A stretch of DNA of 64,000 nt from a virus (IMGVR_UViG_3300045988_058617:30063-94062), one strand, 5' to 3'; shown: positions 139 through 56,090, counted from the first letter of the stretch. The notes: generated by a model from the letters alone, not told the origin. Numbers and translations are program-made.

Positions 139-488
139 AATTTAGCAAAATCTTCCTTGACTTTAGCTTTTATCTATTTTAATATGTTAAGATATTCCTT
201 ATATTCATTAATAACTTCAGAATCAGAAGTAAGATTTTCTGAATAGCTATTATATGAATTGATTAAATCAAATTCTTCATCAACTGTAAGGAATCTTCTA
301 ACTATAGCTTTTACACAATCTTTGTAATTAGGCTGCCCATTTAATAATACCTAGATAAAACTATAGTAAGTTTTTTCTTTTATGGTATTGTCTAAATCAA
401 GTACTTCAACACTAATTTCTTTTATATCATAGTTATAGTAATAAGTACCGTTCCCAAGTTTTTGGATTGTCTAAGGATAAACGTCCAT
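135..488 (-). CDS. Hypothetical protein immediately downstream of the DGR reverse transcriptase (about 117 aa). It has three in-frame TAGs and ends with TGA.
   Basis: Manual minus-strand translation from the ATG at 488–486 gives a continuous ORF to the TGA at 137–135, with TAG as the only internal stop. It has no resemblance to Avd that I can see. Confidence 0.35.
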
Positions 489-1725
489 TTGTATTCTATT
501 CGGCTCTAACATAAGGTGTTATTTTAAAATTTATAGGAAATTTGTATCTAAGCAAAGAATAGTGTAATCTCCTATTCTTACTTTTAAAATAGTAGGGTTT
601 ATTGTTATACATGAAATGTACTCGAAAATGATTGTCATAATCAACAACCTCTACAATGTGAATATATTTATTATAAAACTTAGATATGTTAACTTCTTTT
701 CCATTCCAGTTAGAGAATTTCAATCCAGTTAACTCCTCTACCTTTCTCAGCAAGTTCTTAGAGTTGCAAAATTTCATCCATCCAAAATAAGACCTCATTC
801 TTCTATTCAATTCATCTTTATCAATCTTATTCTATTTATATAGATTTATAAGCCTAAACATCCTCATTTTTATAGATTTTCTCAGTAGAACATGAGTATG
901 ATAGAATTTATAGCCTACGAAATCAATACCTCTGCTTTCTACAGGGAATATTCGATAATTAGGCTTCAACTCTAGGTTAAGAACCTGTTTCAAATATAGT
1001 TTTATAGATACTAATACATTTCTCAAATAATTCTTGTCATTACCAAGAATCACAATATCGTCAGCATATCGAAAGTAGTACTTACATTTTAACTCCTCTT
1101 TTACCCAGTGGTCAAAATATGTCAGATATAAATTTGCAAAGAATTGTAATAGATAATTTCCAATAGGAACTCCCTTCGCTGAATAAATTATTTCTTTCAA
1201 CAGTTTTAATAGTTTTTTATCCTTTATCTTTCTCTATAACATTTCGTATAAAATGTCGTGAGTTATAGAAGGATAGAATTTTTTTATATCCATTTTCAAG
1301 CAATACTTTGTTTCTTCTGGATGTTTCTATAACACCTTAAACAAATCATACTCTACTTTATGAATACCTCTATTTCGTATAGAGAAATATGTTTGGTCTA
1401 TAAATATACTAGTCCAAATAGGCTCCATAATATTCATTATAGCATGGTGAGTTATTCTATCTGGATAGTATGGAAGTCTAAAGATTAATCTTTCTTTAGG
1501 TTCGTATATTATAAAGGTACTATATTCAGAGGTTTGATAAATCAAATCCCTTAACTTATCGGATAATTCCTTATTTTCTTTTAATCTATTCTTATCATGC
1601 TGCTTGATTCCACATCTAATAGACTTATTTCTTCTAGCTTTATCGTCAGCTAGTTCGATGTTATCTTCAGCGTATACTTTCTCGTGCAAATATCCTACAC
1701 GTTTCAATTTTTTTATATATTTCAT
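433..1725 (-). CDS. Reverse transcriptase of a diversity-generating retroelement (Brt-like). It has 3 in-frame TAG codons and ends with TAA.
   Basis: Six-frame ORFs 1327–1725, 832–1200 and 496–810 are all in the same frame. They are separated only by TAG codons at 1327–1329, 832–834 and 496–498, and the frame ends at TAA 433–435. Motifs match Bordetella phage Brt: YEPKERLI, the FRYADDIVILG (YxDD) box and SRGIDFVGYKF…LLRKS. A TR/VR pair is adjacent. Confidence 0.85.
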
Positions 1726-1853
1726 CGGAAGCGTTCGAGAATTAACCTACTAACACCCTTCATTCAACACTACGTTATCTTTTGCCTAGAGGCAAGGATA
1801 TTACTTAGCAAACTAAAAAAAAATAATAAAATGTTTCTAAATATATAATAACT

Positions 1854-1948
1854 CGACATTGGAATTGGGCATTGCTGACGTCATTGTTAGAATTGAAATA
1901 GCTGAGACCTGCATTGCTGCCATTATTCGCGTTGCTGCCTACTAGCAG
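1854..1948 (-). repeat. DGR template repeat (TR).
   Basis: A 95-nt segment homologous to 2056–2149 and 29275–29368. TR is the AT-rich copy, and every substitution relative to both VRs falls at a TR adenine (minus-strand sense). It lies between the target gene stop and the RT start. Confidence 0.8.
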
Positions 1949-2026
1949 TACTTTTTTGCCAATCAACGGTTTTTAGAAGTAATATCCTACGATTTATCAT
2001 CTAAATCGATTTTTATATTGTATATC

Positions 2027-3400
2027 TTAAGATACTCTATTCAGAGTCCTGAACCCGACATTGGAACCGGCATTGCCGACGCCATTGCCAGAACCGAAAA
2101 AGCCGAGACCTGCATTGCTGCCATAATGCGCGCTGCCGCCCACCAGCAGCGTGCGAAGCGCTGTGCTGCTTGCGTTGCAGTAATGGTAATCGCAAATATA
2201 AGTAGTAGCACTTCCTCCAACAGCGGATGGAATTATTTCAGCGGTTTCACCTAAGTCAAATGCCTTAATATAACCATCAGATGCTACTTCGTATCCTGCA
2301 ACGGTTTTCTCTCCAACTACGTCGGTAAATTCCGATACGTTAGTAGTTGTATAGACATTGCTAATCTCATTAGCAGCTGCCCTCACTATAACTACTCCGT
2401 CCAGGTTAGTCCAAATGTCTCCAAACGGATTATCGAACCCTCTCCAGCGAGGTACCTTAAATGTATGAGTTGCTACTGTACTTGTGCCATCTTGAGCTGT
2501 ACATTCTGGAATAACTAAATCTTTTACTCCAGTGAAGTTACCAAATTCATTGCAGTAACCACAAGGCGTAAGTGGAGATGTTGCATTATATCCTGACCAA
2601 CTTGTAGCTGCGTTAGCCCAATCTGTAACTCCAGGTCCTAAACCTCCTTGATGATATCCATCCGCAGTTAACTCTGCATTATATGCAGCCTAAGAATTAA
2701 AATTAGCATATTCAATGACATAATTCCAGTAGAATATCCATTTGTAATATTCATAGCATAGCAATTCTGAACCAGCATTTGTTGCATATGTTCTCATAGT
2801 AGCTCTAGAAATATTAGTTCTAGGCTTTCCTAAATCACTTCTGAATATATCCTTAGTTTCTAATTCTGTAGTTAGATAATCATCGTAGTTAGCTCTATTT
2901 CCTCCACCTCTAAATGCAGTAGTAGTATTAACTACTGATACAGCTTTTGGAGTTGCGGAGACTGTGGTATCAACTGTACTTCTGTATGCATCTATTAATA
3001 GTTCAGGAATTTCTACCCATGAATCATCAATTTTGACAGTAGAAGTTCTAACCCATCTTTTGTTTCCATCGCTGCCAGATTTTCCATAAAATTTAGGAGT
3101 ATTAACTCTTACTGTTCCATCAGTTCCATCTAAGACAGATGGAGTTTCGCCGTCTTCTTTATAAGACCAGTTATCTGGAAACAGATAGTAATTTACTACA
3201 TCATTGTTTGCTACACAACCTCTATACGCTGACTGAATAGGAAGAGATTTATGCAACAAAGGATTACCTATTCTAGTAAGTTCCGGAGATGCTACTGTAA
3301 CATCCCATTCTACTCCATAGGAATATAAATCCATATTACTATTTAGCTCAGTAACCTACTTATCAAGCTTTTGTTGTGCCTTCTACAATTCTTCCCAAGC
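2027..3400 (-). CDS. DGR target protein 1, a putative receptor-binding or tail-fibre protein with a C-terminal C-type-lectin-like variable region. It is recoded (in-frame TAG at 2690, 3356, 3383…); the N-terminal boundary is not resolved.
   Basis: ORFs 2027–2386 and 2690–3334 share a frame across TAG 2690–2692. TAG-to-Gln readthrough gives coiled-coil text (…ELQKAQQKLDKQVTELNSN…). The gene stops at TAA 2027–2029 and VR1 is embedded at its C-terminus. Confidence 0.6.
2056..2149 (-). repeat. DGR variable repeat 1 (VR1), at the 3' end of target gene 1.
   Basis: It is GC-richer than TR, with adenine-specific mismatches relative to TR (AAT/AAC codons in TR become GGT/GGC/CAT/TAT and so on). It is followed by the hairpin ttcag-gact-ctgaa. 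It encodes the segment …GSAHYGSNAGLGFFGSGNGVGNAGSNVG…. Confidence 0.8.
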
Positions 3401-6400
3401 CTCATTTAGTGCTGTAAATTGCTCTTCTAGCTTAGAACTTGAATCTGCCCATTCAGCAGTACCATCTGCTGAGAAAACTAGCATCTATCCAGACTCTCCT
3501 CCAGATGGAATATGTTTATTTCCAGAAGTAGTTGGGTGTACATAATTATTAGCATTATTAGCTATAGTACTTAACTTTTCCTTCTCAGTTTCAGTATAAT
3601 TGGCTTCAGAAAGTCCCTTTCCTAACTCCTTATCTACTTTGCCTTCAAGCTCACCCTTAGTAGCTAATTCACTAATATCCTAATGCTCAGTCAAATATCC
3701 ACTATCATTCTGTAACTAAGAAGTTTTAGTTGGAATTGCATTAGCTTTGGCATATGTCGTATCTATAACATTTCCAGCACCATCGTAAGTAGCTTTTAAA
3801 TCGTATGTGGTTTCCCCAACCTTTATAGATTTGATTGCTGCCATATCATTGTATTATTAAAGTTTCACCAACTACATCGTGATCTATTCCCTCTATGGAA
3901 GCAGTTAGGTCCTCAACAGCCTTCTACAATTCTGCTTTAGTAGCATAGTTCTTGAGAACTTCCTAGTCTACTCCAGAGCCTCCTCCTATACTTCCTCCAA
4001 CAACTTTTACTGGTTTGGCAGAACTCTTAAACTGTCCTTCAATATAAATTGTTCCCATATTGTTTAAAATATTAATTGTTCATTTTCTCCATCTACCTCT
4101 ACACTAGAACCTGGCTATAAAGCGTCTATCTTTTTCTACAATTCGGCTACGGCCTAGCTAATTAGTTCTTCTACCTCAGCTTTGGTGTAGTATCTCTCTA
4201 TAAGATATTCGCTCCTAACATATCCAGTATCTTGTAAATCTTTTTCTCCATAGGTGCAATAATAAGTATCTTCTTCAGTCTTACTATTCTCAACTAGGTC
4301 ATCATAATCAGCTTGTGGTAAGCATACAAGTTTTGGTACTTCTTCAGTAATAGCAACTTGCTTGCCTCCAGCAAATAGCCTGTTATCTTCTGTGGTAAGT
4401 TTAACAGAACTCTCAATAACTTGCTCAGTTCCTGTTTCCTCAGAAGGTTCTCCAGTTGTTCCCTATTGTACTTCTTTTTCTCCAATTTTCTAAATAGTAA
4501 TATCAGAAGTTTCTACTGATGTAGATTTCAAAAGCTCAGTGCTAAATTCTTTAGCAGCAGCAGCCTAATCATCCTGATATTTTTTCTAGGTAACAAATAT
4601 GAAATCATCATCTCCGGTTTCAGGAGAGTCTCCCCTTAAACTTTCTTTTGTTACGTAATCTTCGGCTATCTAATCTGATAAATTAGATAATGACTATTGA
4701 GTAGCATAAGTAGACTGAGCATTTTCCTTAGTAAGAAATTTGTCATCAACCTGCTAAATAGTATAATAAGCCTTAATATCTTCTGTAGTAACGTAGTTTC
4801 CAAGTTTTTGCAAACCTTGAACTATTTCATCAATCTACTTCTTGGAGTAATAATTTGTAGCAACCCAGGACTGATATTGATTAGTAGTATGATAATTCTA
4901 ATCCAAATATTCCTTAGTAATATAAACCTTTGCATCATTTGTAACGTCATATACATAGTAATATGTATCAGGCTCTACCGTCCCTTCCTCTACTAACTTT
5001 AGATACTCTTCTTCAGTTAATGTTACTAAGTTCGGAATATCCGATTCAGTAGCAATCTAATCTTCACCTATAAATAATCCTTCAGACTTAACGTCTACTA
5101 CTAACTAGCCCTCTCCCTCCACTACAGGAGATTTTATCTACCCAACAGTGATGCTTTCTAAGGAGCCATCTCCATCTACCTTAAGAGTTTTATCTAACTC
5201 GTCTTGGATAGCCTACTAATCTTCCTCATATTCTTTCTTTGTAACGAAGACAAAATCATCTCCTTCCATTCCCTCTCCTCTAAGGCTTTCTTTAGTAACG
5301 AAAATATCGTTTGTTTCTTCCTTAGTATAATACTTAGTCAGTGATAGAGCTAAAGAATCGTTAGAGACATAATTAGTAGTTAATTCTTCCAGTGTAGCAT
5401 AATCTGATAGGCTAGCAATAGTGTTATCTAAGTCTGTTCTAATCTATACTACAGTAGTATTAAGAGCCTTCTATTTTAATTGCTCTTCTATCTTTTTCCC
5501 CCATTCCGCGGATAGGTAAAACTAGTTATCGTCTAAGCTATCCTCATATATATAATAATATGTCTCAGCATGAAGATATGGTTTACTTTCATCTATGGGC
5601 CTAAAATCGTCTGTAGTATTCTCAGACCATTCTTTATATTCAGCCTCTGTACAGGTGATTATCTAGATAGATTCATAGGATGCTTTCCATCCTTCCTTGT
5701 ATTTAATCTTAGACTTATCAATCAGCATATAAATATTTCCGTTATCTATGTTAGCAACGGTCATACCTTGATAAGCATACTTCTCTGGAATAGAATAAAG
5801 TTCGTCTAAGTTATTAATGACTGTTCTATTATCGAGAGGCTTCGGAGTTTCTACGGTTAAAGCGACACCTAAGGTAGCATCACCTGTATATTTAAATGCC
5901 ATTATTGTGATAAAGTAAAGTTAATTTGATGAGGCAATGCTGAGGAGTAAGTATCTTTCTTAGTCCATACCTTGTAAGTAAATCCATTTATCTACTCGGT
6001 AGACGTTTCCCAACCACTTAGGTCTACATTTAAATATCCAAGTCCTCCATCTACGGTAAATGAATTTAACTATGTGTTACTTCCTGGCAATTTTATAATA
6101 GCCTTACCACTTAGTGAAAATGTGATAGTTCCAGACGATTGTCCAAAAGGAACTAGCGCCTATTTAATCACACCATCAGTATTACCAGAATACCAAGGAT
6201 ATGTGGCTACTACCTAAGCGGTAGCGGAAATAGAACCAGCTTCTACTCTCTTATCTGTAACTTCTCCTTTATTATTTATCAAATATTCTCCAGCGGCATA
6301 ACTCACTGTACCAGAGTGAGTATAAGTACCAATAGAATTATATGTATCAGACTCTACAGGAGAACTGTTAGAAGTAATAGTTTCTCGTCTGTCAGTTTCT

Positions 6401-9400
6401 TCTCCAGCATCATTCTTTATAAATGTAAGTGTAGGAGTTAATAAAGCAGTTCCCACTTCTACTATTTGAGAAGTAAAACTATAATAAAGCTATGGGTATA
6501 CTAAATCTCTAACTACTGTTGGAAACAGTAAAGTATCAATAATTTCATTAAAGGGCTTGCCCTTAAGTTTCTCTACTGTAGTCCCTTCAATTACTGTTGA
6601 AGTAGTATCATCTGGGAGTTCCGTCTAATAAGTAGCTATAGTTTCTAAGTTAGTTTGTATATTAGTAATACTTTCAGTATTAGCTTCTACTTTAGTATTT
6701 GTCTCTTGTTGTGCTTCCTAAGTTTTCTATACTTCTTTCTTTGTTTCTTCTAGAGCAGGTTCAAGATTCTTAACATAGATACCTGGAAGGATAATAGAAG
6801 AGGTTTCCTCTCCAATCTCCTATTCTATTAAATGAATAGCATTATCTTCCTAAGTAGATAAAATCACCTCTAAGGAATTATTTTCCTTTAGTTCTATAGT
6901 TTTGGAATTTTGGAGACTATTCTTAATCCAATTAAGAATGTTTTTATCAACATCTATATTCTCAATAGCATTGTTCAACTCAACTATAGCTTCATTGATT
7001 TTTACTATTTCTTCAGATAGATTATTAATTCCTTTTCTATTAATATCAATTTCTCGCTGTAAATCCTCCTTCAATACAGATATAGAAGTTCTAATATTGC
7101 TTATATCGACTTTCAGTTCTTCTATTGCTTCTGTATTAGATTCATATTCGCTAATAAAGTATAGGGCATAGTCTAGGGCATCCTTCACAGTATTAATGCC
7201 TTCTGCAACGTCACTAGTATAGGTCCATTTTTGTTCTATATACTATACTAGGTCTTTTTGCAGTTCTATGGTTCCACTAATGTTTCCCCACAATAGACTC
7301 TACTCATCAGCAATACCTAAGTTCTTTCTTACTTTAGCTTTTTCTAGTTCTGTCCTATATTCTCCTAAATAGTTATTTCTTAAGAGAGGTATAGGCTCAC
7401 ATTTTATAGGCTTACCCTTTTTACCACAAGGCACTATATCTGCGTTACTTACCGAAGTGTAAATAGACTGTATCATTCTAGTTTAATAATTGCTATTTAA
7501 TAAATTCGTGATTATCTAGTCTTACAGGTAGGTTAATAAAACAAATTAGATTAAGAATATCTTGATAATCTGGTTTATATCCCTTTTTGAGTTTTCTTAG
7601 AAAATCCTCATACCTTTTAATAGCCTTTCTCTTAAGAGCATCCACAACCTATACGTTTATGTCCATGGTGGTGATTGTCACAGAATCCTCCACAGGTACG
7701 GAACATCGCTAGTAATCTTTCAGCCTCCATGAATTGTTTAAAGCATATTAAATAATCTATAATGTTAAGAGTCATCCATATGAAATCTCGAGCAAATATA
7801 AGTGCTTCCTAATCTCTAGTTAGACACTTATTTAGTAAAGCATCAAAGAGTTTCTTACAATAATTAATGTAACACTACTACAAGTTTCCTGTAAAGAAAA
7901 CATCTACCTTACATTTTTTTATAGTAGTTCCTTCTATGTTTCGTTCAAGAACTTCTTTAACTGTACACTCTTCTAGCTTACCTTCTACTTCTTTATATAA
8001 TTTTTCTCCATCAGTAACATAGATAGTCTCATAGTATTCCTTGTATTCGTCCGATGAATTTTCATACCATTTCATATTAGGAATAATGATATGGTCTACT
8101 ACGTAATAACCATCATCCTTGACCTTAAACATACACGAGTCTAAGTCTTCTGTATGGTCATTAAGTAGGACATCTATCAGAGTAGCATCGCTTATACTAA
8201 CTTTGATGATAGTATTCAAGGTAGCACTCTCACTATACTTATAGGAGTCGTAAGAAGTTACTACCTCTACATCTTCATCAATATACTAGCCATATTCTTT
8301 TGAGAAATCTTCTATCAGTATTTCCCCATTAATTTGGGTATGTATATCAATACTAAATTCCATATTGCAATAATATTAAGTGTTAGGCCATTGACCGTAT
8401 TGAGCTGGTGTAGAAAAAGGTCCCCACTTTCCAGATTGCTTTATACGTCTAGACATAAAAACAGAAGTAAAAGATAAACTAATATCTTGTGGATAGTCAG
8501 TCCAGGTATAAGACTATCCATCTGGAGTAGGAGGTAATTTATCAATCCCAGAGGAGGGCTGTCCATTCCAGTAGTAGTTATAGTCATAGGCTTTAATAGA
8601 GGTTACTTCTGTGGTTTCTCTCCCGTCAGAATCTATATAGAGAGGATCTCCTTTTTCATTCGTTTTTTGTTTATACTCTATAACTGGTGTTATTCCCTCG
8701 GTTCTAGTATATATAGTCTATATAATAGTAGAGACATCACTCGCTACTATTTCATAGATAGTAGTTCCCTATGATTCATCAGCTCCCTAAAAAGTAAATT
8801 TAGTTCTTTTCCATATATATGGATTCTCTTCTGTTGGAAGCTCAAAAGTATCAGACCACTACTTACTTGATAGTTTTATTTCAGATTCATTGGCAGTATT
8901 AGCAGGGAGATAATGTATTTTAATAATAATACTATTAACTGCTTCACTTGAACCGGATAAATCTGATACCTACTTAAATAATTTTTTTAAGTCGTCTTCT
9001 ACATTTGATTTAGAACCGGAAGCATTACTTATAATTACTGTCCCATCAGAGATAGGATAAATCTACTACTAATCTTTGTTGTATACAATTGTTCCAGTTG
9101 CCATATTAATGTATTTGTCTTATTTTGTCATTATATGGATTTCCATCATGAAGCTAAGCCAACTCTATTTCAGTTCTTTTTTCTTCAATATCCATTTGTC
9201 TATCTTTATAAGTAGAATCAGACTGAGCTTTAAGCCAGTTAACTTTATATTCTAACTGCATCTTCTACTATTCTAATCCCAGTCTCTATTCATCTAAGCT
9301 TTCAATCTTTTGCTGAGCTTTCTATAATTCTTGCTATAACTACTGAGCCTATTGAGAAGTTTCTTCTAATTTTTCTTGTAGTTGCTGAAGCTGATTATTT

Positions 9401-14432: not shown

Positions 14433-14567
14433 TTATTTCTTTTTCATTTTGGAACCGCACTTATTGACTTTCATTTTTGAGCCACAAGCGTCTTTCTTAG
14501 CATATTGTTTTCTGTCAGGAACCCATTTTCCTCCCTGGAAATTACCCTTATGTCCTTTATTGGCCAT
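14433..14567 (-). CDS. Small, very basic protein (about 44 aa, MANKGHKGNFQGGKWVPDRKQYAKKDACGSKMKVNKCGSKMKKK).
   Basis: Manual translation, below the ORF-track size cut-off. Its function is unknown. Confidence 0.3.
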   Translation of the reverse strand: MANKGHKGNFQGGKWVPDRKQYAKKDACGSKMKVNKCGSKMKKK

Positions 14568-14648
14568 AGTTTCCTAATCATTGTATTTATTGATTGATAT
14601 AGAATCTCTTGAGGCTTCGTCTCTAGCAGATTTCATATCTTTCTTATA

Positions 14649-15914
14649 CTAAGCTCTTCCTGCCTTAAATTTATCAACTTCATTAGCTTTCTTAGTAACT
14701 TTAGTTCCTTTTTGTGCTTTCTGGCAAGCTTTACAGATTCTACCGCCTTGCTTAAAATATACAAGCTCTTCTCCTTCTGGACATACTCCTTTTAGCTTCT
14801 TATAATACTCAAGCTTAGCTCCAAGCCTAGCCATTACTCCTCCTTGCATTTTCTGCATAAATTCCTGATACTTAGCTTTAATGCCGTCTTCACCTAATTG
14901 TTCAGCATAAGCTTGTAAATCCTGTTCAGACTATATCTGAACTCCCTATGACTGCGCATCCTATATTAAATATGCCACAAACGCTTTTTGTAATTCTTGT
15001 TGATTATTCATTGTTCCTCCTTGTTGAAATTTAGTTGTAGGTCCCGGAGATAATGTTAATGGTTCAGCTTCTGATTTTCTAGAATTCCATACATCTCCAA
15101 GATAATTAAATAATCTCAACCTCCTATGTATCCCAAAATCTCCTCCTTGTACTGTATTTCCCATAGTATATCTACTAGTGGCCTGTACAGGATTTACTTT
15201 AGGCTTACTTGAAGGCTACTCGGCTCTTGTCTATTCACTAGCTGGCTAACGGCCTCCTGTAATAGTTGGTATTCCTCTACCCCAAGTAGTTCCTTTTGTT
15301 GTAGCAATTAGGTCTGGAGATTCTATACTAATCTAAGTACCTAACTAAGGAATCTGAATGGCAGAAGGTTGTTTAGGCTTACTTGAAGGCTACTCGGCTC
15401 TTGTCTATTCACTAGCTGGCTAACGGCCTCCTGTAATAGTTGGTATTCCTCTACCCCAAGTAGTTCCTTTTGTTGTAGCAATTAGGTCTGGAGATTCTAT
15501 ACTAATCTAAGTACCTAACTAAGGAATCTGAATGGCAGAAGGTTGTTTAGGCTTACTTGAAGGCTGTCCTAAGTCTGTAGTATATACAGAATTTCCCCAC
15601 ATAAACTGTTTTAGTCCTCTCTCTCTAGCAGCCCTAAAAGCTGTCTTAAAATCTTTAACACCTCTTAAATCATCCTAAGCTATTTCAGCAGTAGGAAGAG
15701 GTTCTAATCTTGTGGGTAATGAAGGCATTTCTGGAGCATCAAAATATGTCTCTTGTAACTTAGGCATTTTCTATTGTGCGGTTCTTCTAATAATGTCTGG
15801 ATTAGTTGCCCAAGTCTAATGCAACTACCTCAAGGTTCTCTCATCTAAGTCCGCATCTCCGTAAATAATTTTGATATTACGCATCAATTCAGGGTCAAAC
15901 TACACTTTAGCCAT
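14649..15914 (-). CDS. Late protein (recoded) containing a tandemly duplicated 58-aa P/T/Q/S-rich segment. The 3' boundary is uncertain.
   Basis: ATG at 15914–15912 (MAKV(Q)FDPELMRNIK…). The frame-0 ORFs 14961–15164 and 14649–14858 continue the same frame across TAGs. The gene carries the 174-bp repeat. Confidence 0.45.
15201..15566. repeat. Perfect 174-bp tandem direct repeat: 2 full copies plus an 18-bp third copy, in-frame within a late gene.
   Basis: Units 15201–15374 and 15375–15548 are identical. 15549–15566 restarts the unit and then diverges. 174 nt is 58 codons. Confidence 0.85.
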
Positions 15915-15916
15915 TA

Positions 15917-16069
15917 CTCTTCTACTTTAATTAAATCCTTAGTATTAAACACTGCTTCCTACATAAGTCCGGAATCAGTAAACCATCTACATCTTAATCC
16001 TCGTAATCCTTGGTTATCTTTAAATAAAGCTGCTTCTCTTCTTAGAACAAGCATAACTGGAGAGTGCAT
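15917..16069 (-). CDS. Small hypothetical protein (about 50 aa) with one in-frame TAG.
   Basis: Manual translation: MHSPVMLVLRREAALFKDNQGLRG…. Confidence 0.25.
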
Positions 16070-16124
16070 TACTTTACACTACCGTAAAGTAACACAATCC
16101 CCAGGCTTAAAATAAACTTTTTCA

Positions 16125-16742
16125 TCAATTGTTTCCATGCTTCAATTCGTCTCTTCTTTCAGTTAGTTTCTCATTAACTACAGCCATGATTCTATTCTCA
16201 TTAACTACTACAAATCCTAGTTTATAGAATGGAACCATACATTCGCTAGCTATTGTATAAAATACAATATCTCCAGGCTTCAAGAACTCACACTTGTGTC
16301 CTACTTCTATCACAGTTCCTACTTTAATAAATTGTTGTTCTTCTTCAATTTCTCCAGTCTCATTAGATTTATAAGTAGGAGTAAATCCACCTAAATCAGT
16401 AATAAGACCACTTTTAGTAGTTTTTATTTTTTGGAATGGGTTTCGTTCAAAAGGTTTAATTAATGCATACCCATACATCGGCATAATTTCAAGTCCATTC
16501 ATATCGTTAGATAATGACTTAGCGTAATCCTCTAGTGCCTGATTATGTTTGGAGAATTTATCCTCTAACTCATCTACTGCGGTATTAAACTTCTCTTGTT
16601 TTTCTCTTAATAATGTTTGGTCTGCAGCTTCTCCATTTAAAATAAAATGTTCTCCCGTACCTTCCATTCCAGTTAATGATAGTGCTAGTTTTTCGTTACT
16701 GTTTAATTCTGTTCTTAAAGTTTCCATAATCCATTTTACCAT
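16125..16742 (-). CDS. Hypothetical protein (205 aa). The C-terminal part has a GroES-like pattern (…LKPGDIVFY…). Standard coding, ends TGA.
   Basis: ORF track. No in-frame TAG. The stop tca→TGA at 16125 was verified. Confidence 0.55.
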   Translation of the reverse strand: MVKWIMETLRTELNSNEKLALSLTGMEGTGEHFILNGEAADQTLLREKQEKFNTAVDELEDKFSKHNQALEDYAKSLSNDMNGLEIMPMYGYALIKPFERNPFQKIKTTKSGLITDLGGFTPTYKSNETGEIEEEQQFIKVGTVIEVGHKCEFLKPGDIVFYTIASECMVPFYKLGFVVVNENRIMAVVNEKLTERRDELKHGNN

Positions 16743-16930
16743 TTACATAAATCACAATGTTCATCTTCAATTCTTGTTTTATTCTCTAATATACAACCAC
16801 ATTCATCGCACACTTCCCCAACAGATGTTTGTAATTTATGGGAACAAGCGTCACAAATTTTTAATCTTTTGGTTGCCAAATCTTGATTTATTCCGAATAT
16901 ATTGAAATATATACTTTTCAATATTGTCAA
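16736..16930 (-). CDS. Small Cys-rich zinc-ribbon protein; a paralogue of 17059–17274.
   Basis: ORF track. It has CxxC…CxxC and ends …HCDLCKW, which parallels …HCPAGKW in the neighbour. Confidence 0.5.
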   Translation of the reverse strand: MTILKSIYFNIFGINQDLATKRLKICDACSHKLQTSVGEVCDECGCILENKTRIEDEHCDLCKW

Positions 16931-17058
16931 AGGTTTAGTAAATATTGCTTTAATCCACTTCCATATTATATCTTTTTCCTACTTTGTTTCCCTATTTATA
17001 TTTTGGACAGTAAGTATATAATGCTTATCTAGTTTATATAATATAGGAGTTCCATAAA

Positions 17059-17274
17059 TTACCATTTCCCTGCTGGACAATGTTTCTTTTCGTTTGGAAT
17101 CTTCTTCTCTAGTAAACATCCACATCCCTTTATATACCCTTCTTTAGGGCTTATACTTATATCATTATTCTTTGGATTTAGATACAAATGCCCATTACAT
17201 AATCCATTATCTTGGTCACATATTGGACAGCGTCTACATATCTCAAATCTTTCTTCTATTTCCTCTAGTGTCAT
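17059..17274 (-). CDS. Small Cys-rich zinc-ribbon protein (paralogue).
   Basis: ORF track, with CRRCPICD…CGC…HCPAGKW. Confidence 0.5.
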   Translation of the reverse strand: MTLEEIEERFEICRRCPICDQDNGLCNGHLYLNPKNNDISISPKEGYIKGCGCLLEKKIPNEKKHCPAGKW

Positions 17275-17276
17275 AA

Positions 17277-18191
17277 TTAATATTCAATACGTTGACGTTT
17301 TCTTTTATTTTCTGCCAATATAGATTCCTTCTTATAGAAGGCTAGCATTTTTATAACCTCATCTTTTAGATATGGCAAATGATATACTGTCATATTATCA
17401 TTATGGTCGAAATGTACCAAAACCAAATCCTCTATTTCAAACTCTGGATTTTTCTTTTGAATCATCCAAGCATAAGTACTTAATTGTAAAGTATAGTGCC
17501 AGTAATTAACATCATCTAAATTATTTAGAGGATATTTCATCTTAACAGAAGTTTTAGTTTTAGAATTGAAGAAACTCTTAGTTTCTATTTTCTTATTGGT
17601 CTTCCAGTCTCCTATAATTATCTTATTTCCTCTTTTAACTAATAAGTCAATCTGTCCTGCTATTCTTAGCTTTCCATCATCCGATACTCTAGATATTAAA
17701 TACTCAGGATATACACCATTCTCTAAGTCTAATTCATTGTGGTCTTTTATACACTCGAACTTGCCACCTATTTGATATTTACTAAGGTCTATGTTCTGTT
17801 TCTTTTTATAGAAAGAGTTTTCCAAATCTGCATGGATTTTAGTTCCCCTCTCGCATGAGTTTCTATTCTCTAAATCCCAAGCATCTAAGATAGCTTGTTG
17901 CTCTTTATTAAACTCGTCTTCTGTAATGTTATGAAGTTCAAGTAGAACTTTATCAAATTTCTTAGTGTTTAACAAAGACTTTTTTTCTATAGCCCAATCT
18001 TCTTTAGGTAAGAGTTTCTCTAGTGCTTTATATGCTGACCAGAACTCCTTATCAAATGGTTGGGTGAAAGAATGAATTAAAGTCGTTACAGATATAAACT
18101 TCTGTTCTGGCTTTGTAACATCATAATAAATATGAGCTTCTTCCTCAAAAGCTATGTTCCCATTTTGTTTTGTAATTTTACTTTTGTCCAT
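17277..18191 (-). CDS. PD-(D/E)xK family nuclease (YqaJ/lambda-exonuclease/Cas4-like).
   Basis: ORF track, 304 aa. It has the motif …IAGQIDLLVKRGNKIIIGDWKTNKK…, which is typical of the D…(D/E)xK catalytic core. Confidence 0.5.
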   Translation of the reverse strand: MDKSKITKQNGNIAFEEEAHIYYDVTKPEQKFISVTTLIHSFTQPFDKEFWSAYKALEKLLPKEDWAIEKKSLLNTKKFDKVLLELHNITEDEFNKEQQAILDAWDLENRNSCERGTKIHADLENSFYKKKQNIDLSKYQIGGKFECIKDHNELDLENGVYPEYLISRVSDDGKLRIAGQIDLLVKRGNKIIIGDWKTNKKIETKSFFNSKTKTSVKMKYPLNNLDDVNYWHYTLQLSTYAWMIQKKNPEFEIEDLVLVHFDHNDNMTVYHLPYLKDEVIKMLAFYKKESILAENKRKRQRIEY

Positions 18192-18305
18192 TAGTCATAA
18201 TTCATTTAATCATTTATCACATTTATCTATATTTATTTGATACTTTTCAAGTATATTAATATTCTTTGTAAGATACAAATCAATAAATAAGACATTATAT
18301 TAAAA

Positions 18306-18647
18306 ATGTCTAATATGACAAAAATGGTAACATTTGGATGTCCAATTTTTAAAAACGGGTCAGGTATTCATATTAAAGAGAAAAACAAAGGTAAATTTAC
18401 TGCCTCTGCTAAGGCTGCAGGATAGTCTGTACAGGAACATGCTAAATCTGTACTAAACAATCCTAATGCTACTCCGCTTCAGAAGAAGCGTGCTAACTTT
18501 GCTAGAAACGCGGCTAAATGGAAACACGAAGATGGAGCTAAGATACATAAACCAAGTGGACATAGATCTATTCTAGATAATGGATGGATTCCTACTACTA
18601 GATTAAAGAAAGGAAATTATGGATTAATTAAAACAAGAAAGCAATGA
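18306..18647 (+). CDS. Hypothetical protein (113 aa) on the plus strand inside the late block, with one in-frame TAG (amber-recoded).
   Basis: Manual translation MSNMTKMVTFGCPIFK…AAG(TAG)SVQEHAKSV…KTRKQ*. The TAG is at 18423–18425 in frame. Confidence 0.45.
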
Positions 18648-18722
18648 GCGCTGTAGTTAAATTAATTAAAGAATTTATACTTAAGATATATCTTTATTTA
18701 CTATTTATATTTAATAAGTAAT

Positions 18723-18914
18723 ATGGACTATAATAGAGCAACTCTTTATGCGGCTACTGGTCGTACTTTATTACTCCCTGGCTGGAAAGGGGATTTTTAT
18801 TGGGACTATACTAAGAATGAATTAAATTTTAGAAATGGAGACTATCATTTAGATAACAAATAGCTCAAGGAGAAAGGAGTTATGGAACGTAATGATTGGT
18901 ATTATATAATATGA
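18723..18914 (+). CDS. Small hypothetical protein with one in-frame TAG.
   Basis: Manual translation MDYNRATLYAATGRTLLLPGWKGDFYWDY…. Confidence 0.35.
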
Positions 18915-19303
18915 TAATTAAAAATAATATTATACCGTTTGGAGGTTATAAAGTAATTAATCTGTTTGGATTAATATTTACTAAGTCGGATTTGACTGAT
19001 GAGGATAAGAATCACGAGAATATCCATTCAGTATAGATTTTAGAATGTGCAATAGCGTTTGCAATACTTATATCTATATTATTTGGATTAGAATGGGTAT
19101 GGTTAGCTATTCCATCTTTCTATATCTGGTATGGATTAGAGTATTTAATTATACGACTATTAAGACTTAAAGATTCTCAAAATGATTGCTACAGAGATGT
19201 AAGCTTTGAAGAAGAAGCTTATATGAATGAAGACAATTTACAGTATCTAGAAGGATAGAGAAAGATGTTTTCATGGATAAAATATCTAAAAGTTAATGCA
19301 TAA
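18911..19303 (+). CDS. Small membrane protein (two predicted TM helices) with 2 in-frame TAGs.
   Basis: Manual translation MIIKNNIIPFGGYKVINLFGLIF…. The start overlaps the previous stop (ATGA). Confidence 0.35.
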
Positions 19304-19304
19304 C

Positions 19305-19345
19305 AAAATAGGCGAACTTAGACAATTAAGTCTAGGCTCGCCTAT
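19305..19345. terminator. Putative bidirectional terminator hairpin between the convergent genes 18911–19303 (+) and 19348–19560 (−).
   Basis: An imperfect inverted repeat (ggcgaac…gctcgcc) followed by a T-run on the plus strand. Confidence 0.3.
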
Positions 19346-19347
19346 TT

Positions 19348-19560
19348 TTATTTACTATTATACGTACAAGTGATTCTGTTTGGCTCTTCCCACCAAGGTT
19401 TATCTGAAAGTGGAGTTCTGATGCTATTGGGCCAATTTATAATTGGAGTAGTTTCCTCTACTATAGCCTCCATTATTTTAAATAATGTATCCAAGTCTAG
19501 CTCTGGAAGCAGCTCATGAATATTAGTTATTGTTTTCTTATAATTTATCATACCCTTCAA
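19348..19560 (-). CDS. Hypothetical protein.
   Basis: ORF track, 70 aa. Confidence 0.4.
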   Translation of the reverse strand: MKGMINYKKTITNIHELLPELDLDTLFKIMEAIVEETTPIINWPNSIRTPLSDKPWWEEPNRITCTYNSK

Positions 19561-19906
19561 AAGTGTCGTTAATAATTGCTTTCTCTATTGTAGTATCTTT
19601 ATATAAACCATGTTGTAGTATATTTCTTACTTGATGGTCTACTTGATTCCATATATCTAATAATATAGAAGAATCATCTGAAAGACTATATTGTGGATAG
19701 CTAGCCCTTAAACTGCTAAGTACTTTGCCATTAATGTAAATGTCAAATACGAAATTTTTTATATCATCTGTAGTTTCTCCAGAAATTCCTTCAGCTCTTT
19801 GTAAAAGTTTAAGAGCCTTTTCATATACTTCCCTTTCTTCACGCTTAATTCTTGAAGAATTGAGCATCATCATATTTGCGGCTACTGACATATTAGTACG
19901 ATACAC
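19538..19906 (-). CDS. Hypothetical protein.
   Basis: ORF track, 122 aa. Confidence 0.45.
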   Translation of the reverse strand: MYRTNMSVAANMMMLNSSRIKREEREVYEKALKLLQRAEGISGETTDDIKNFVFDIYINGKVLSSLRASYPQYSLSDDSSILLDIWNQVDHQVRNILQHGLYKDTTIEKAIINDTFEGYDKL

Positions 19907-20055
19907 TTAGCTTATTTAAGTTGTCTAGATAATCTAAGAACCATTGTTCGTTTTGTTTTCCTTCTTCTACAATAGTATTAATTAAAGATTCTGTAGCTAA
20001 TAGTGTTATTTCTGCTAGCTCCTCTAATTCCGATTTAGTAAGTTCGTTATATTTT

Positions 20056-20370
20056 TCAATCAAGTTTAACATAATCCATCCAGTCTTTTATATATGATTT
20101 ACATTCTTCCAAATCTGGATAGATACTTGTTATAGAGCATCCAGTTTTCGGATTTTTAAAGTGATGCATCTTAGTCTCTTCTTTTTTCTCCTCTTCTGTA
20201 TTTCTATTTAATGTTCTATTCCAATAGTTGTACTTTTCATCTAACATTTCCATATCACATTCCTCTAATATTTTCATATTAGGGTTATTCATTATCTTGT
20301 CGTATTTTCTCTTTAAATTAGAGACTTTGACAACATCATTTCCATTTAATACAACTGCACACTGTTTCAT
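20056..20370 (-). CDS. Hypothetical protein.
   Basis: ORF track, 104 aa. Confidence 0.45.
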   Translation of the reverse strand: MKQCAVVLNGNDVVKVSNLKRKYDKIMNNPNMKILEECDMEMLDEKYNYWNRTLNRNTEEEKKEETKMHHFKNPKTGCSITSIYPDLEECKSYIKDWMDYVKLD

Positions 20371-20594
20371 TTCAATACCTTATAAGTACATATCTTGCCT
20401 ATCTGTTTTCCTTGAATTGTTATTTGCGGAAGAAAATAGCAGGCTTGATTCTCAAATTCTTGAGGTACAAAGATATAATCAAACTTACTTCCAACTACCT
20501 TCTCACAAACTTTATTCCAATCGTCTCCCTCTTCTATAATAAGAGTTTTAGCTCCTGTTGGAGTTACTACATAATTCTCATTTAATTTTATCAT
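20367..20594 (-). CDS. Hypothetical protein. The true start is probably MIKLNENYVV at about 20594; the ORF-track N-terminal extension overlaps the tRNA.
   Basis: ORF track 20367–20669, trimmed at the internal ATG. Confidence 0.45.
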   Translation of the reverse strand: MIKLNENYVVTPTGAKTLIIEEGDDWNKVCEKVVGSKFDYIFVPQEFENQACYFLPQITIQGKQIGKICTYKVLK

Positions 20595-20611
20595 AACTAT
20601 TAATTTTGGCG

Positions 20612-20683
20612 TTGCCCTACTAGGATTCGAACCCAGACTAAATGATTTAGAGTCATCTGTGCTGACCATTACACCATAGGGCA
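20612..20683 (-). tRNA. Amber-suppressor tRNA, anticodon CUA (reads UAG), with a Gln-tRNA-like scaffold.
   Basis: Manual fold: acceptor TGCCCTA/TAGGGCA, D arm GTGT-AATGGTCA-GCAC, anticodon stem GATGA/TCATT, loop CTCTAAA (U33, CUA, A37), T arm CTGGG-TTCGAAT-CCTAG. Its overall architecture is almost identical to tRNA-Gln(UUG) at 33540. Confidence 0.8.
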
Positions 20684-20821
20684 GTAACTTATTTCTCTTT
20701 TAGAGATTTATTTTCTGCTGCCAATTTCTCTAGTTCTTTTCTTAATTGTTCATTTTCGTGAAATAAAGCCTGCATAGTAGCGTTGATATTAGCTAATAGT
20801 ATTCTCATTTGAGCAACCTAT

Positions 20822-21223
20822 TCATACATAAGCTTTCAGTTGTTCAATTCTCTTTTTAGCTATATCTGACAATGCCATTTTGAATTTAGCAATACCAGCT
20901 CTTACTGTTTCTAACTTGCCGCTTTCTAAGCATTCTTGTATTTTATGAACTTCAAGCTCTCCTAGATATTCGCATACATCTATAAATAAATCATCATCTA
21001 GAGATTCTAAATATTTCTGGAATTGGTCTGCCTCTTCATTAGCTAGACAGCTTTCTTCCTTCTATCTTTCATAAGATATTAATAAGAACAAAGAATCGTC
21101 GGTAGATTCGGACTTAATAGTTAGCCCATTACCAGACATATAATATTCTTGATTCGTATTAATTGCCTCAACTAGCTATTTAAACTAGTCCTAATTTAAC
21201 AATGTTTCTAAGTCTGTAATCAT
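20822..21223 (-). CDS. Hypothetical protein (133 aa) with 4 in-frame TAGs, ending in TGA.
   Basis: Manual translation from ATG 21223–21221: MITDLETLLN(Q)D(Q)FK(Q)LVEAINTNQEYY…KAYV*. Confidence 0.45.
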
Positions 21224-21548
21224 AATTGTTTTCTTTTTAGTTATATACAACAATAACCTCCGAAAAGTTAAACGCAAAGTTAAAAAATTCTAATTCAAAT
21301 ATTATACATATTTTATATATTAAGGGGAAAGCCGGTACAGGTACTTTATATAAATAGCCCCCTGGGGTTATTATAAATTCCGACTTTTATATTTGGAGGG
21401 CAATTACCTAGATTCCAAAAATTCATAGAGTGAGTGTAGTGGCGGTCCACCACTACGTTAGACCCCCCCTGGGGTTCGTAGTGGAAAATAAATATCCATA
21501 TATATAATCCCTAACCATATAAGAGTAATAATTATAAATTTTATAACA
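21224..21548. promoter_or_regulatory. Divergent intergenic control region between the minus-strand recoded genes and the plus-strand early genes. It contains two copies of CCCCCTGGGG (21357–21366, 21465–21474) and an inverted repeat gtagtgg-cggtc-caccactac (21436–21456).
   Basis: About 320 nt with no ORF, flanked by divergently oriented genes. The repeats were seen directly. Promoter function is inferred. Confidence 0.35.
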
Positions 21549-42952: not shown

Positions 42953-42978
42953 CATGACAGGGCTATAGTTCAACCGAT

Positions 42979-55876: not shown

Positions 55877-56090
55877 AATAATTTTTAGAATGGAAATAAT
55901 TAATGCAACAGATGGCTATAAATTGGGCCACCATAGAATGTATCCAGAAGGTACTGAACAAGTTTACAGTAATTAGACTCCTAGAAGTAACAAATACTTT
56001 CCAGAAGCCACTGAAGGTTCTGTAGTATTCGGAATCCAATATTTAATTAAGAAGTATCTGATTGATGAATTTAATCAGAATTTCTTTGGA

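What the first reader, a model, noticed from the sequence alone, without database searches (positions are those of the whole stretch)
400..21230. Stop-codon reassignment: amber (TAG) is read as sense in late genes, on both strands
Across roughly the first 21 kb, minus-strand reading frames are chopped into short ORFs. Every break I checked (more than 15 sites) was a TAG, never TAA or TGA. Consecutive fragments stay in the same frame, and readthrough restores long proteins.
- The DGR reverse transcriptase spans 3 TAGs.
- TerL spans more than 10 TAGs, with its motifs intact.
- Readthrough of one TAG gives coiled-coil text (ELQKAQQKLDKQVTELNSN), which suggests Gln.
- Genes at 16125–20600, and the plus-strand early genes, use ordinary TAA/TGA stops and contain no in-frame TAG.
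- Plus-strand genes embedded in the late block (18306–19303) and some endonuclease genes in the tRNA array also carry in-frame TAGs.
This pattern matches the early-standard/late-recoded switching described for crAss-like and other gut phages.
Basis: partly seen in the sequence, partly recalled or inferred. Interest (0 to 1): 0.8.

Follow-up and report, generated by a model that had tools for sequence, protein, structure and literature searches.

The report
Amber stop codon read as glutamine

Summary
On the minus strand, 433-16138 holds 13 abutting genes (5,064 codons) with 136 in-frame TAG and no in-frame TAA or TGA (chance about 1e-74). They include a reverse transcriptase, tail proteins, the portal and TerL.

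TAG means Gln. In a 93.5%-identical relative, window TAGs that are not TAG there are CAA/CAG in 29 of 36 cases, and 34 of 39 in the reverse direction. In a standard-code relative, Gln is the commonest partner (14 of 58).

An amber-suppressor tRNA (anticodon CUA, 20611-20683, minus strand) heads the leftward arm, just left of the GC-skew minimum (about 21.3 kb). It keeps CTA in all 34 IMG/VR contigs whose tRNA body matched.

The plus-strand arm is standard code:
- 35 genes (7,661 codons) contain no genuine sense TAG.
- Two of them end in TAG, which relatives replace with TGA or TAA.
- One TAG, in NAMPT, is a TGG-to-TAG mutation.

Recoded exceptions on the plus strand are 18306-19303 and two homing-endonuclease ORFs in the tRNA array.

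This matches published work on large crAss-like phages (Yutin 2021, Borges 2021, Peters 2022). Public gene calls already put Q at these sites. Verdict: a correct reading, already known, of low interest. A second stop-anticodon tRNA (UUA) is unexplained.

The parts
433..16138 (-). Densely recoded structural ('late') block. It holds 13 abutting genes (5,064 codons) with 136 in-frame TAG and 0 in-frame TAA or TGA. Terminal stops are TAA x11 and TGA x2.
433..1725 (-). Reverse transcriptase (DGR-type) with 4 in-frame TAG.
   Evidence: phrog_1423 at 3.8e-107 and Pfam RVT_1 at 1.7e-16
2027..3844 (-). Tail protein (DGR target) with 6 in-frame TAG.
   Evidence: phrog_5302 at 4.2e-85; VR copy at 2069-2149
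9106..11277 (-). Portal protein with 28 in-frame TAG.
   Evidence: phrog_6547 at 1.5e-47 and Pfam P22_portal. Public homologues of 723 aa have Q at all 28 sites.
11469..13832 (-). Terminase large subunit with 20 in-frame TAG.
   Evidence: phrog_6681 at 5.6e-63. tblastn to Crassvirales TerL gives 25-28% identity, and 43% to the standard-code relative MT835470.1.
16125..20370 (-). Minus-strand genes between the tRNA and the structural block that are almost free of TAG. 16125-16742, 17277-18191 (PD-(D/E)XK nuclease), 19538-19891, 19893-20072 and 20056-20370 have 0 TAG. 16736-17125 has 1.
18306..19303 (+). Three plus-strand genes embedded in the leftward arm, with 1, 1 and 2 conserved in-frame TAGs. 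18911-19303 is a protease-like protein (phrog_15610).
20611..20683 (-). Amber-suppressor tRNA with anticodon CUA and a canonical cloverleaf. It starts 5 nt after the stop codon of ORF 20689-20829. The matched 45-base stretch (D arm to variable loop) keeps anticodon CTA in all 34 IMG/VR contigs of the lineage that were found. The full tRNA is identical in 7 of the 8 relatives inspected.
   Evidence: ARAGORN; Rfam tRNA 66.3 bits
20689..21223 (-). Two small recoded ORFs at the head of the leftward arm, 20822-21223 with 4 TAG and 20689-20829 with 1 TAG. They lie directly upstream of the suppressor tRNA.
21224..21548 (.). Divergent intergenic region where the two gene arms part. The cumulative G-C skew minimum falls at about 21,300.
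21993..21995 (+). TAG acting as a true stop of plus-strand gene 21549-21995. The same position is TGA in relative L094, and the paralogue 22391-22849 ends at the equivalent place with TAA.
44637..44639 (+). TAG acting as a true stop of plus-strand gene 43965-44639. Orthologues at 76-84% identity end one codon earlier in TAA ('...SLIA*'); in L124 that terminator is itself TAG. A backup TAA lies 6 codons downstream.
23597..23666 (+). Second stop-anticodon tRNA (UUA). It was found in 12 related contigs. The same scaffold carries CUA in two relatives and UAA in one. Its role is unexplained.
33540..33612 (+). Phage tRNA-Gln (UUG), the window tRNA closest to the amber suppressor at 71% identity. Both share U1-A72, G2-C71, A73 and the same D arm.
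26333..26737 (+). PD-(D/E)XK homing-type endonuclease ORF inside the tRNA array, with 3 in-frame TAG.
   Evidence: Pfam PDDEXK_5 at 1.7e-14 over residues 9-116; TAGs conserved in L090
39094..39519 (+). Homing-endonuclease-related ORF inside the tRNA array, with 6 in-frame TAG. Its C-terminal half is 46% identical to the intron-encoded HNH endonuclease of Staphylococcus phage Sb-1/K, with Q opposite one TAG.
55974..55976 (+). A TAG that is not part of the recoding. Codon 29 of the NAMPT gene is TGG (Trp) in 69 of 69 relatives, so this is a G-to-A nonsense change or a sequencing error.

Best explanation
The window comes from a large (about 187 kb) crAss-like phage that uses two meanings of TAG within one genome.

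**What is shown.**
- In the leftward arm (structural and packaging genes, 433-16138, plus a few genes up to 21223), TAG is a sense codon for glutamine. It makes up about half of all Gln codons there.
- The decoder is a phage-encoded amber-suppressor tRNA (anticodon CUA, 20611-20683). It lies at the head of that arm, next to the point where the two arms and the GC skew diverge.
- The rightward arm holds the tRNA array, a helicase, RNase H, NAMPT, SPFH proteins and other genes. It is written in the standard code: it avoids sense TAG entirely and even uses TAG as a terminator twice.

**What is inferred, following the published model.**
[quoted passage not shown] Structural genes abort at their first TAG, which lies at codon 5 to 133 in these 13 genes.
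- Once the suppressor tRNA accumulates, presumably charged with Gln by the host GlnRS, it outcompetes release factor 1 at UAG and the late proteins are made.
- Homing-endonuclease ORFs in the early arm are held back in the same way.
- TAG-terminated early genes would then merely gain 6-7 residues before a backup TAA or TGA.

The amino-acid identity, the tRNA and the block structure are shown. The timing, the charging enzyme and the competition with RF1 are inferred.
For: - **Only TAG interrupts the genes.** Counts are 136 TAG, 0 TAA and 0 TGA in frame, with P about 1e-74. ORFs are restored only under a TAG-as-sense reading.
- **Homology spans the TAGs.** This holds for RT, tail, portal and TerL.
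- **TAG exchanges with Gln codons in relatives.**
  - L007 (93.5% identical): 82 TAG, 29 CAA/CAG, 7 other; in reverse, 34 of 39 are Gln.
  - L006 (86.6% identical): 31 of 45 non-TAG partners are Gln.
  - L001, a standard-code relative: Gln at 14 of 58 positions, the top residue, followed by Glu and Lys, against a Gln background of 4.4%.
- **Independent standard-code evidence.** 'IAxYDL' in the window aligns to 'IAQYDL' in a Staphylococcus phage endonuclease.
- **Codon usage.** TAG is 136 of 266 Gln-type codons in late genes and 7 of 234 in early genes, none of the 7 being a genuine sense codon (Fisher p = 2e-37).
- **The suppressor tRNA.** The tRNA(CUA) is canonical and conserved.
- **TAG as a terminator.** TAG exchanges with TGA or TAA at two early-gene termini.
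- **Genome architecture.** The GC-skew minimum at 21.3 kb separates the two arms.
- **Published precedent.** Yutin 2021, Borges 2021, and the metaproteomic proof of TAG = Q in two crAss-like phages by Peters 2022, one of which the Crassvirales review assigns to the Zeta group.
Against: - No expression data exist, so 'early' and 'late' rest on gene content and orientation.
- No GlnRS or release-factor gene was found among the window ORFs screened against Pfam or PHROGs.
- The tRNA's Gln identity cannot be proven from sequence. It is 71% identical to the phage tRNA-Gln but 69% to tRNA-Thr. Its D arm also matches tRNA-His of Patescibacteria.
- The suppressor sits in the same arm as the recoded genes and downstream of two recoded ORFs, so it is not obviously an 'early' product.
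- An endolysin-like gene (45562-46059) lies in the TAG-free arm. This differs from the reported preference for recoding lysis genes.
- A second tRNA with an ochre-type anticodon (UUA) does not fit the simple model.
Confidence: 0.9

Rival explanations
1. TAG is read as Gln at all times during infection, so the phage uses constitutive code 15 with no temporal switch. On this view the rightward arm simply lacks TAG for compositional or historical reasons.
For: - The suppressor tRNA lies beside the arm divergence point and could be transcribed immediately.
- Both TAG-terminated early genes have an in-frame backup stop 6-7 codons later, so read-through would be harmless.
- Public gene callers apply code 15 to whole contigs of this lineage.
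Against: - There are 0 genuine sense TAGs in 7,661 early codons against 136 in 5,064 late codons, although Gln codons are common in both. That contrast implies selection against TAG in one arm.
- TAG is interchangeable with TGA or TAA exactly at two early-gene termini. It therefore functions as a terminator there.
- A fresh TGG-to-TAG change in NAMPT is unique among 70 genomes.
Confidence: 0.08
2. TAG encodes an amino acid other than Gln, such as pyrrolysine (as ARAGORN labels the tRNA), Glu, Lys, Tyr or Trp. Alternatively it is decoded ambiguously by two different suppressor tRNAs.
For: - ARAGORN names any CUA tRNA 'Pyl'.
- Glu and Lys are the next most frequent partners of TAG in distant relatives.
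- A second suppressor-type tRNA of unknown identity exists.
- The amber tRNA's Gln identity is not provable from sequence.
Against: - In the closest relative, 63 of 75 TAG-to-non-TAG exchanges are to CAA or CAG, and no other residue exceeds 3.
- The tRNA has a normal D loop (GG) and T loop (TTCGA), unlike tRNA-Pyl.
- Glu and Lys are the usual substitutes for Gln.
- Mass spectrometry in related crAss-like phages found Q.
Confidence: 0.03
3. The TAGs are damage rather than code. On this view they mark pseudogenes, a defective phage, or sequencing and assembly errors.
For: One TAG in the window really is of this kind, namely NAMPT codon 29, which is TGG in all 69 relatives.
Against: - All 136 in-frame stops are of one type, with none of the other two types and no frameshifts.
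- 82 of 118 TAG positions are conserved as TAG in a 93.5%-identical independent assembly.
- Dozens of independent contigs of 175-193 kb share the pattern.
Confidence: 0.005

Closest known systems
TAG-to-Gln (code 15) recoding of late genes in crAss-like phages, especially the large 'Zeta' group (Yutin et al. 2021, PMC7886860)
   Same: - TerL and portal homology to crAss-like phages.
- Relatives' contigs of 175-193 kb, within the published 145-192 kb range.
- Conserved TerL, portal and other genes interrupted by TAG only.
- Gln as the inferred residue.
- Recoding confined to the structural and late part of the genome.
- A phage-encoded suppressor tRNA within a large tRNA complement (28 here).
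- Homing endonucleases, with split genes in relatives.
- A close relative that uses the standard code (MT835470.1).
   Different: There is no difference in kind. Placement inside the Zeta group was not tested phylogenetically, because the reference genomes are not in the searchable collections. This lineage carries two stop-anticodon tRNAs (CUA and UUA).
Model of stop-codon recoding as a timer for late and lysis genes (Borges et al., bioRxiv 10.1101/2021.08.26.457843; Nat Microbiol 2022)
   Same: - A standard-code arm carrying replication-type genes and a recoded structural arm.
- A suppressor tRNA.
- Replichore-like GC skew, with the arms diverging at the skew minimum.
- Recoded homing-endonuclease ORFs sitting among standard-code genes. 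That paper reports the same for a TGA-recoded intron endonuclease.
   Different: - No release factor or aminoacyl-tRNA synthetase 'code-change module' was found in this window.
- The only endolysin-like gene seen (45562-46059, a weak match) is TAG-free and lies in the standard-code arm.
- The suppressor sits in the recoded arm, downstream of two recoded ORFs.
Metaproteomic validation of code 15 in two human-gut crAss-like phages (Peters et al. 2022, PMC9523058)
   Same: The same predicted reassignment (TAG = Q) in structural proteins. According to the Crassvirales review, one of the two validated phages belongs to the Zeta group. Early-region peptides in that study showed no recoding.
   Different: That work has peptide evidence and this window has none. 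Whether the validated phage is the same lineage was not determined.
Classical amber suppression by tRNA-Gln(CUA), E. coli supE (general knowledge, not tested here)
   Same: A CUA-anticodon tRNA with a U1-A72 first pair inserts Gln at UAG in competition with RF1.
   Different: Here the suppressor is phage-encoded and its use is built into about 2.7% of all codons of the structural genes. It is not a rescue of rare nonsense mutations.

Membership tests
Phage with TAG-to-Gln recoding (genetic code 15) of late genes | Conserved genes are interrupted in frame by TAG only, and read-through restores full-length homologues. | tested here: met
   136 TAG, 0 TAA and 0 TGA in 13 genes. HMM matches to RT, tail, portal and TerL span the TAGs.
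Phage with TAG-to-Gln recoding (genetic code 15) of late genes | TAG positions correspond to Gln in homologues. | tested here: met
   TAG exchanges with CAA or CAG in 29 of 36 and 34 of 39 cases (L007) and 31 of 45 (L006). Gln is the top residue in standard-code relative L001. Q lies opposite a TAG in a Staphylococcus phage endonuclease.
Phage with TAG-to-Gln recoding (genetic code 15) of late genes | A phage-encoded suppressor tRNA with anticodon CUA. This is frequent in the family but not universal. | tested here: met
   tRNA at 20611-20683(-), Rfam 66.3 bits, conserved with CTA in 34 contigs.
Phage with TAG-to-Gln recoding (genetic code 15) of late genes | Recoding is limited to the structural or late module, with the other module in standard code. 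| tested here: met
   Late genes have 2.7 TAG per 100 codons. The 35 genes of the other arm have no genuine sense TAG, and two of them terminate in TAG.
Phage with TAG-to-Gln recoding (genetic code 15) of late genes | A temporal switch, with late genes translated only after suppressor expression. | not testable with these tools
   Needs time-resolved transcriptomics, ribosome profiling or proteomics.
Phage with TAG-to-Gln recoding (genetic code 15) of late genes | The host uses the standard code. | not tested
   The host was not identified. Contigs of this phage are mis-binned into MAGs labelled Bacteroides, Clostridium and Acholeplasmataceae, which does not establish a host.
Crassvirales, large-genome 'Zeta'-like group | TerL and portal homologous to those of crAss-like phages. 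| tested here: met
   TerL tblastn hits are dominated by Crassvirales and crAss-like Flavobacterium and Azobacteroides phages, at 25-28% identity over about 80% of the protein, with E down to 3e-44. One hit is classified as Crassvirales; Suoliviridae.
Crassvirales, large-genome 'Zeta'-like group | Genome of 145-192 kb with many tRNAs, introns and homing endonucleases. | tested here: met
   Near-identical relatives sit on contigs of 175-193 kb. The window has 28 tRNA hits and homing-endonuclease ORFs. TerL is split in relatives L002 and L003.
Crassvirales, large-genome 'Zeta'-like group | Phylogenetic placement with Zeta reference genomes, and presence of crAss signature genes (MCP, IHF, giant RNAP). 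| not tested
   Reference cMAGs are not in the searchable collections, and these genes were not identified inside the window.
Pyrrolysine decoding system (ARAGORN's label for the tRNA) | An atypical tRNA-Pyl structure and Pyl-type usage of UAG. | tested here: not met
   The cloverleaf is canonical, with a GG D loop and a TTCGA T loop. The substitution spectrum points to Gln.

The most novel reading that the evidence does not exclude
The lineage runs a two-tRNA suppression system. Besides the invariant tRNA(CUA), a second tRNA scaffold next to the arm divergence point carries UUA here and in 11 related contigs, CUA in two relatives and UAA in one. If this tRNA is charged and active, it could be a second UAG decoder (by U:G wobble) that also partly reads UAA. 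That would be a snapshot of a code evolving from amber-only towards amber-plus-ochre reassignment, or a tunable read-through device. No in-frame TAA is yet seen in any gene of the window.
Probability: 0.12. Interest if true: 0.55.

Novelty: already known. Interest (0 to 1): 0.22.

Why it matters
For annotation, this matters in a practical way. Translating this region with the standard table shreds TerL, the portal, the tail genes and the RT into fragments with a median of 23 codons. Applying code 15 to the whole contig would instead wrongly extend at least two genes that really stop at TAG.

Biologically, it is a clean and well-controlled example of a known phenomenon. The same codon is both a stop and a Gln codon within one genome. 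The suppressor tRNA sits at the boundary of the two arms, and a standard-code sister phage is available for comparison. It adds no new principle.

The only loose end with some potential is the second tRNA, whose anticodon switches between CUA, UUA and UAA among close relatives.

Tried and rejected
- **TAA-as-sense and TGA-as-sense translations.** These gave only short, incoherent extensions typical of an AT-rich sequence. There is no evidence for ochre or opal recoding despite the UUA tRNA.
- **Megablast of 400-16000 against 50,697 phage records.** No match. The lineage is absent from that collection at the DNA level, so relatives were reached through proteins instead.
- **Inferring the tRNA's amino-acid identity from its scaffold.**
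  - The best window match is tRNA-Gln (71%), but tRNA-Thr follows closely at 69%.
  - A genome-wide scan for the D-arm and T-arm pattern returned 106 tRNA-His(GUG) genes of Patescibacteria.
  - The only Gln or CUA hits in that scan were mis-binned contigs of this phage lineage.
  - The scaffold test is therefore uninformative, and Gln rests on codon exchange.
- **Selected backup stops after TAA terminators, as might be expected if the UUA tRNA were an active ochre suppressor.** Distances to the next in-frame stop looked unremarkable.
- **A special nucleotide context after sense TAGs.** No striking bias was seen.
- **Apparent in-frame TAGs in plus-strand genes 51467-51904 and 61369-62667.** These lie at codons 4-10, upstream of a better internal ATG, and were rejected as start-call artefacts.
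- **ORF 37667-38278 (5 TAG) and ORF 25235-25630 (4 TAG).** Neither had family support. They were not counted as recoded genes.

Full report
**1. The observation**

The window is 35.5% G+C. Under the standard bacterial code, minus-strand ORFs of 150 aa or more cover only 6.1 kb. If TAG is allowed as sense they cover 21.2 kb, and ten long ORFs tile 433-15926 end to end. Allowing TAA or TGA instead restores nothing coherent.

After choosing start codons, the block 433-16138 contains 13 abutting minus-strand genes (5,064 codons). They hold 136 in-frame TAG and no in-frame TAA or TGA. In the two other frames of the same genes TAG is 28.6% of stop triplets. The chance that all 136 in-frame stops are TAG is therefore about 1e-74. 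Standard-code fragments have a median length of 23 codons.

The read-through products are recognisable proteins, and their HMM matches span the TAGs:
- reverse transcriptase (phrog_1423, 3.8e-107; RVT_1)
- tail protein (phrog_5302, 4.2e-85)
- portal (phrog_6547, 1.5e-47; P22_portal)
- TerL (phrog_6681, 5.6e-63)

- TerL has 20 TAGs.
- The RT has 4 TAGs, not 3.
- The quoted coiled-coil text contains two TAGs.

**2. Which amino acid**

TerL places the phage among crAss-like phages, at 25-28% identity to Crassvirales TerL. Two closer unannotated human-gut contigs match at 43-44%. One of them, MT835470.1 (L001), has no in-frame TAG and so uses the standard code. Opposite the window's TAGs it has Gln at 14 of 58 aligned positions, followed by Glu and Lys, against a Gln background of 4.4%.

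Much closer relatives exist in public assemblies. Portal proteins of 723 aa are identical to the window's apart from the TAG sites, and they sit on contigs of 175-191 kb. I fetched DNA for four relatives and compared codons across 11 recoded minus-strand genes (10 of the 13 late genes plus 20822-21223).

| Relative | Amino-acid identity | Window TAG aligned to | Relative's TAG aligned to (window codon) |
|---|---|---|---|
| L007 | 93.5% | 82 TAG, 29 CAA/CAG, 7 other | Gln in 34 of 39 non-TAG cases |
| L006 | 86.6% | Gln in 31 of 45 non-TAG cases | Gln in 33 of 49 non-TAG cases |

TAG therefore behaves as a synonym of CAA and CAG.

Counting TAG as Gln gives the late proteins 5.25% Gln. Their CAA and CAG codons alone give 2.57%. 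A further independent point comes from a homing-endonuclease ORF, where the window's 'IAxYDL' aligns to 'IAQYDL' in Staphylococcus phage Sb-1.

**3. The decoder**

ARAGORN and Rfam find a 73-nt tRNA with anticodon CUA at 20611-20683 on the minus strand. ARAGORN's 'Pyl' label is only its default name for CUA. The cloverleaf is canonical.

Among the window's tRNAs it is closest to the phage tRNA-Gln(UUG), at 71% identity. The two share U1-A72, G2-C71, A73 and the D arm. However, tRNA-Thr is at 69%. A scaffold scan of bacterial genomes mainly returned tRNA-His of Patescibacteria. The tRNA sequence alone therefore does not prove Gln identity.

A 45-base stretch of the tRNA (D arm to variable loop), searched with the anticodon left free, occurs with anticodon CTA in all 34 matching IMG/VR contigs. 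The full tRNA sequence was read in eight relatives: it is identical in L007 and L089-L094 and differs at two bases in L006.

It starts 5 nt after the stop of ORF 20689-20829. It lies about 0.6 kb left of the cumulative G-C skew minimum at about 21,300, where the two gene arms diverge.

**4. The block structure**

Leftward arm:
- Between the tRNA and the structural block lie minus-strand genes with no TAG: 16125-16742, 17277-18191 (a PD-(D/E)XK nuclease), 19538-19891, 19893-20072 and 20056-20370.
- One further gene, 16736-17125, has a single TAG.
- Three plus-strand genes embedded there (18306-19303) carry conserved TAGs that exchange with CAA, CAG or GAA in relatives.

Rightward arm:
- It holds 35 genes of 100 aa or more (7,661 codons) and 227 CAA or CAG codons.
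- Only 7 apparent in-frame TAGs occur, and none is a genuine sense codon (Fisher p = 2e-37 against the late genes).
- Three of the seven are terminators or lie beyond one. 21993-21995 is TGA at the same position in L094, and a second TAG five codons beyond it, in the read-through tail, was also counted. 44637-44639 ends a gene whose 76-84% orthologues stop one codon earlier with TAA; in L124 that terminator is itself TAG.
- Three more lie at codons 4-10, upstream of a better start.
- The last, NAMPT codon 29, is TGG in 69 of 69 relatives. It is a point mutation or an error at an invariant Trp.

The exceptions in this arm are two homing-endonuclease-type ORFs inside the tRNA array:
- 26333-26737, which matches PDDEXK_5 at 1.7e-14 and has 3 TAGs
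- 39094-39519, which has 6 TAGs

So the same genome uses TAG both as Gln and as stop, partitioned by arm.

**5. Mechanism**

Shown:
- The reassignment to Gln.
- The conserved cognate tRNA.
- The partition between the arms.
- The terminator use of TAG in the other arm.

Inferred, following the published model:
- In a standard-code host, structural genes abort at their first TAG (codon 5-133).
- This lasts until the phage tRNA(CUA), presumably charged by the host GlnRS, competes effectively with RF1.
- The recoding thereby delays structural proteins and homing endonucleases.

No release factor or aminoacyl-tRNA synthetase turned up among the window ORFs screened. An endolysin-like gene (45562-46059, a weak match) is TAG-free.

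**6. Rival explanations**

- Constitutive code 15 is disfavoured by the total avoidance of sense TAG in one arm and by the exchange of TAG with TAA or TGA at two gene termini.
- Another amino acid, or pyrrolysine, is excluded by the exchange spectrum and the tRNA structure.
- Pseudogenes or sequencing errors are excluded by conservation of the TAGs across independent assemblies.

**7. Comparison with what is known**

- Yutin et al. 2021 described crAss-like phages, notably the Zeta group (145-192 kb, rich in introns and inteins, many tRNAs). These reassign TAG to Gln mostly in late genes, encode suppressor tRNAs, and switch code at short phylogenetic distances.
- Borges et al. proposed the timing model and reported recoded intron endonucleases.
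- Peters et al. showed Q at TAG by mass spectrometry in two crAss-like phages; the Crassvirales review identifies one as a Zeta-group phage.
- Public gene calls for this very lineage already carry Q at all 28 portal TAG sites.

The finding is therefore correct but already known. Formal placement within the Zeta group was not tested.

**8. Residual oddity**

A second tRNA, at 23597-23666 on the plus strand, has the ochre-type anticodon UUA. Among relatives, its scaffold carries different anticodons:
- UUA in 12 related contigs
- CUA in two (L158, L159)
- UAA in one (L094)

No TAA recoding is visible, and TAA is the main terminator of the late genes (11 of 13). Its function is unexplained. It may assist UAG decoding by wobble.

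Noticed in passing
window 23597-23666 (+); L094 5241-5311; L158, L159: A second stop-anticodon tRNA (UUA). The same scaffold carries CUA in two relatives and UAA (nominally Leu, but a short class-I tRNA) in one. No TAA recoding is seen in the window.
   Followed up: partly
window 42392-42955 (+): A phage-encoded tmRNA (Rfam RF00023, 68.8 bits against a gathering score of 47) with a roughly 156-nt insertion. ARAGORN missed it. By my reading, the tag frame is AEIAPVRMAA followed by TAA. It sits inside the tRNA array.
   Followed up: partly
window 1868-1948 and 2069-2149: A DGR template/variable repeat pair of 81 nt at 83% identity. All 14 mismatches are at T of the plus strand, which is A of the coding strand, in the copy next to the RT. 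The variable copy lies in the 3' end of tail gene 2027-3844.
   Followed up: partly
window 55974-55976 and 57005-57677: The NAMPT gene carries TAG where 69 of 69 relatives have TGG (Trp). Its 3' part also diverges from relative L008 after about 57004 and instead matches L026, suggesting a recombinant or truncated gene. A PRPP-synthetase-like gene follows at 57347-57931.
   Followed up: partly
window 25235-26009 (+): Radical-SAM-like coding sequence spread over at least two frames (25235-25630, 25360-25716, 25713-26009). This could be a frameshift, an intron or a decayed gene.
   Followed up: no
window 14433-15914 (-): The protein contains an exact tandem duplication of about 57 residues (PSSKPKQPSAIQIPxLGTx...TRAEx), including its TAG codons. 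Orthologues differ greatly in length: 190 aa in L007 and 434 aa in L006.
   Followed up: no
L232 and L214 (DXLM01000001.1, 186 kb, 'Bacteroides sp.' MAG); L236 ('Clostridium sp.' MAG, 153 kb); L006 and L248 ('Acholeplasmataceae' MAG): Contigs of this phage lineage are deposited inside bacterial MAGs under three unrelated taxon labels. This looks like mis-binning and makes the labels unreliable as host evidence.
   Followed up: no
L002 20001-24434; L003 6280-9780: In relatives, TerL is split into 2-3 pieces separated by 1-2 kb, with a LAGLIDADG ORF in L003. In the window it is intact. This indicates presence/absence polymorphism of an intron or intein.
   Followed up: no
window 28834-28899, 34452-34519, 38787-38888, 40575-40647 (+): Four extra tRNA hits found by Rfam only and missed by ARAGORN. 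One spans 102 nt and may contain an intron or be degenerate.
   Followed up: no
window 45562-46059 (+): A weak endolysin-like gene (PHROG E of about 3e-6) with a signal or transmembrane start lies in the TAG-free arm. This is unlike the reported preferential recoding of lysis genes.
   Followed up: no
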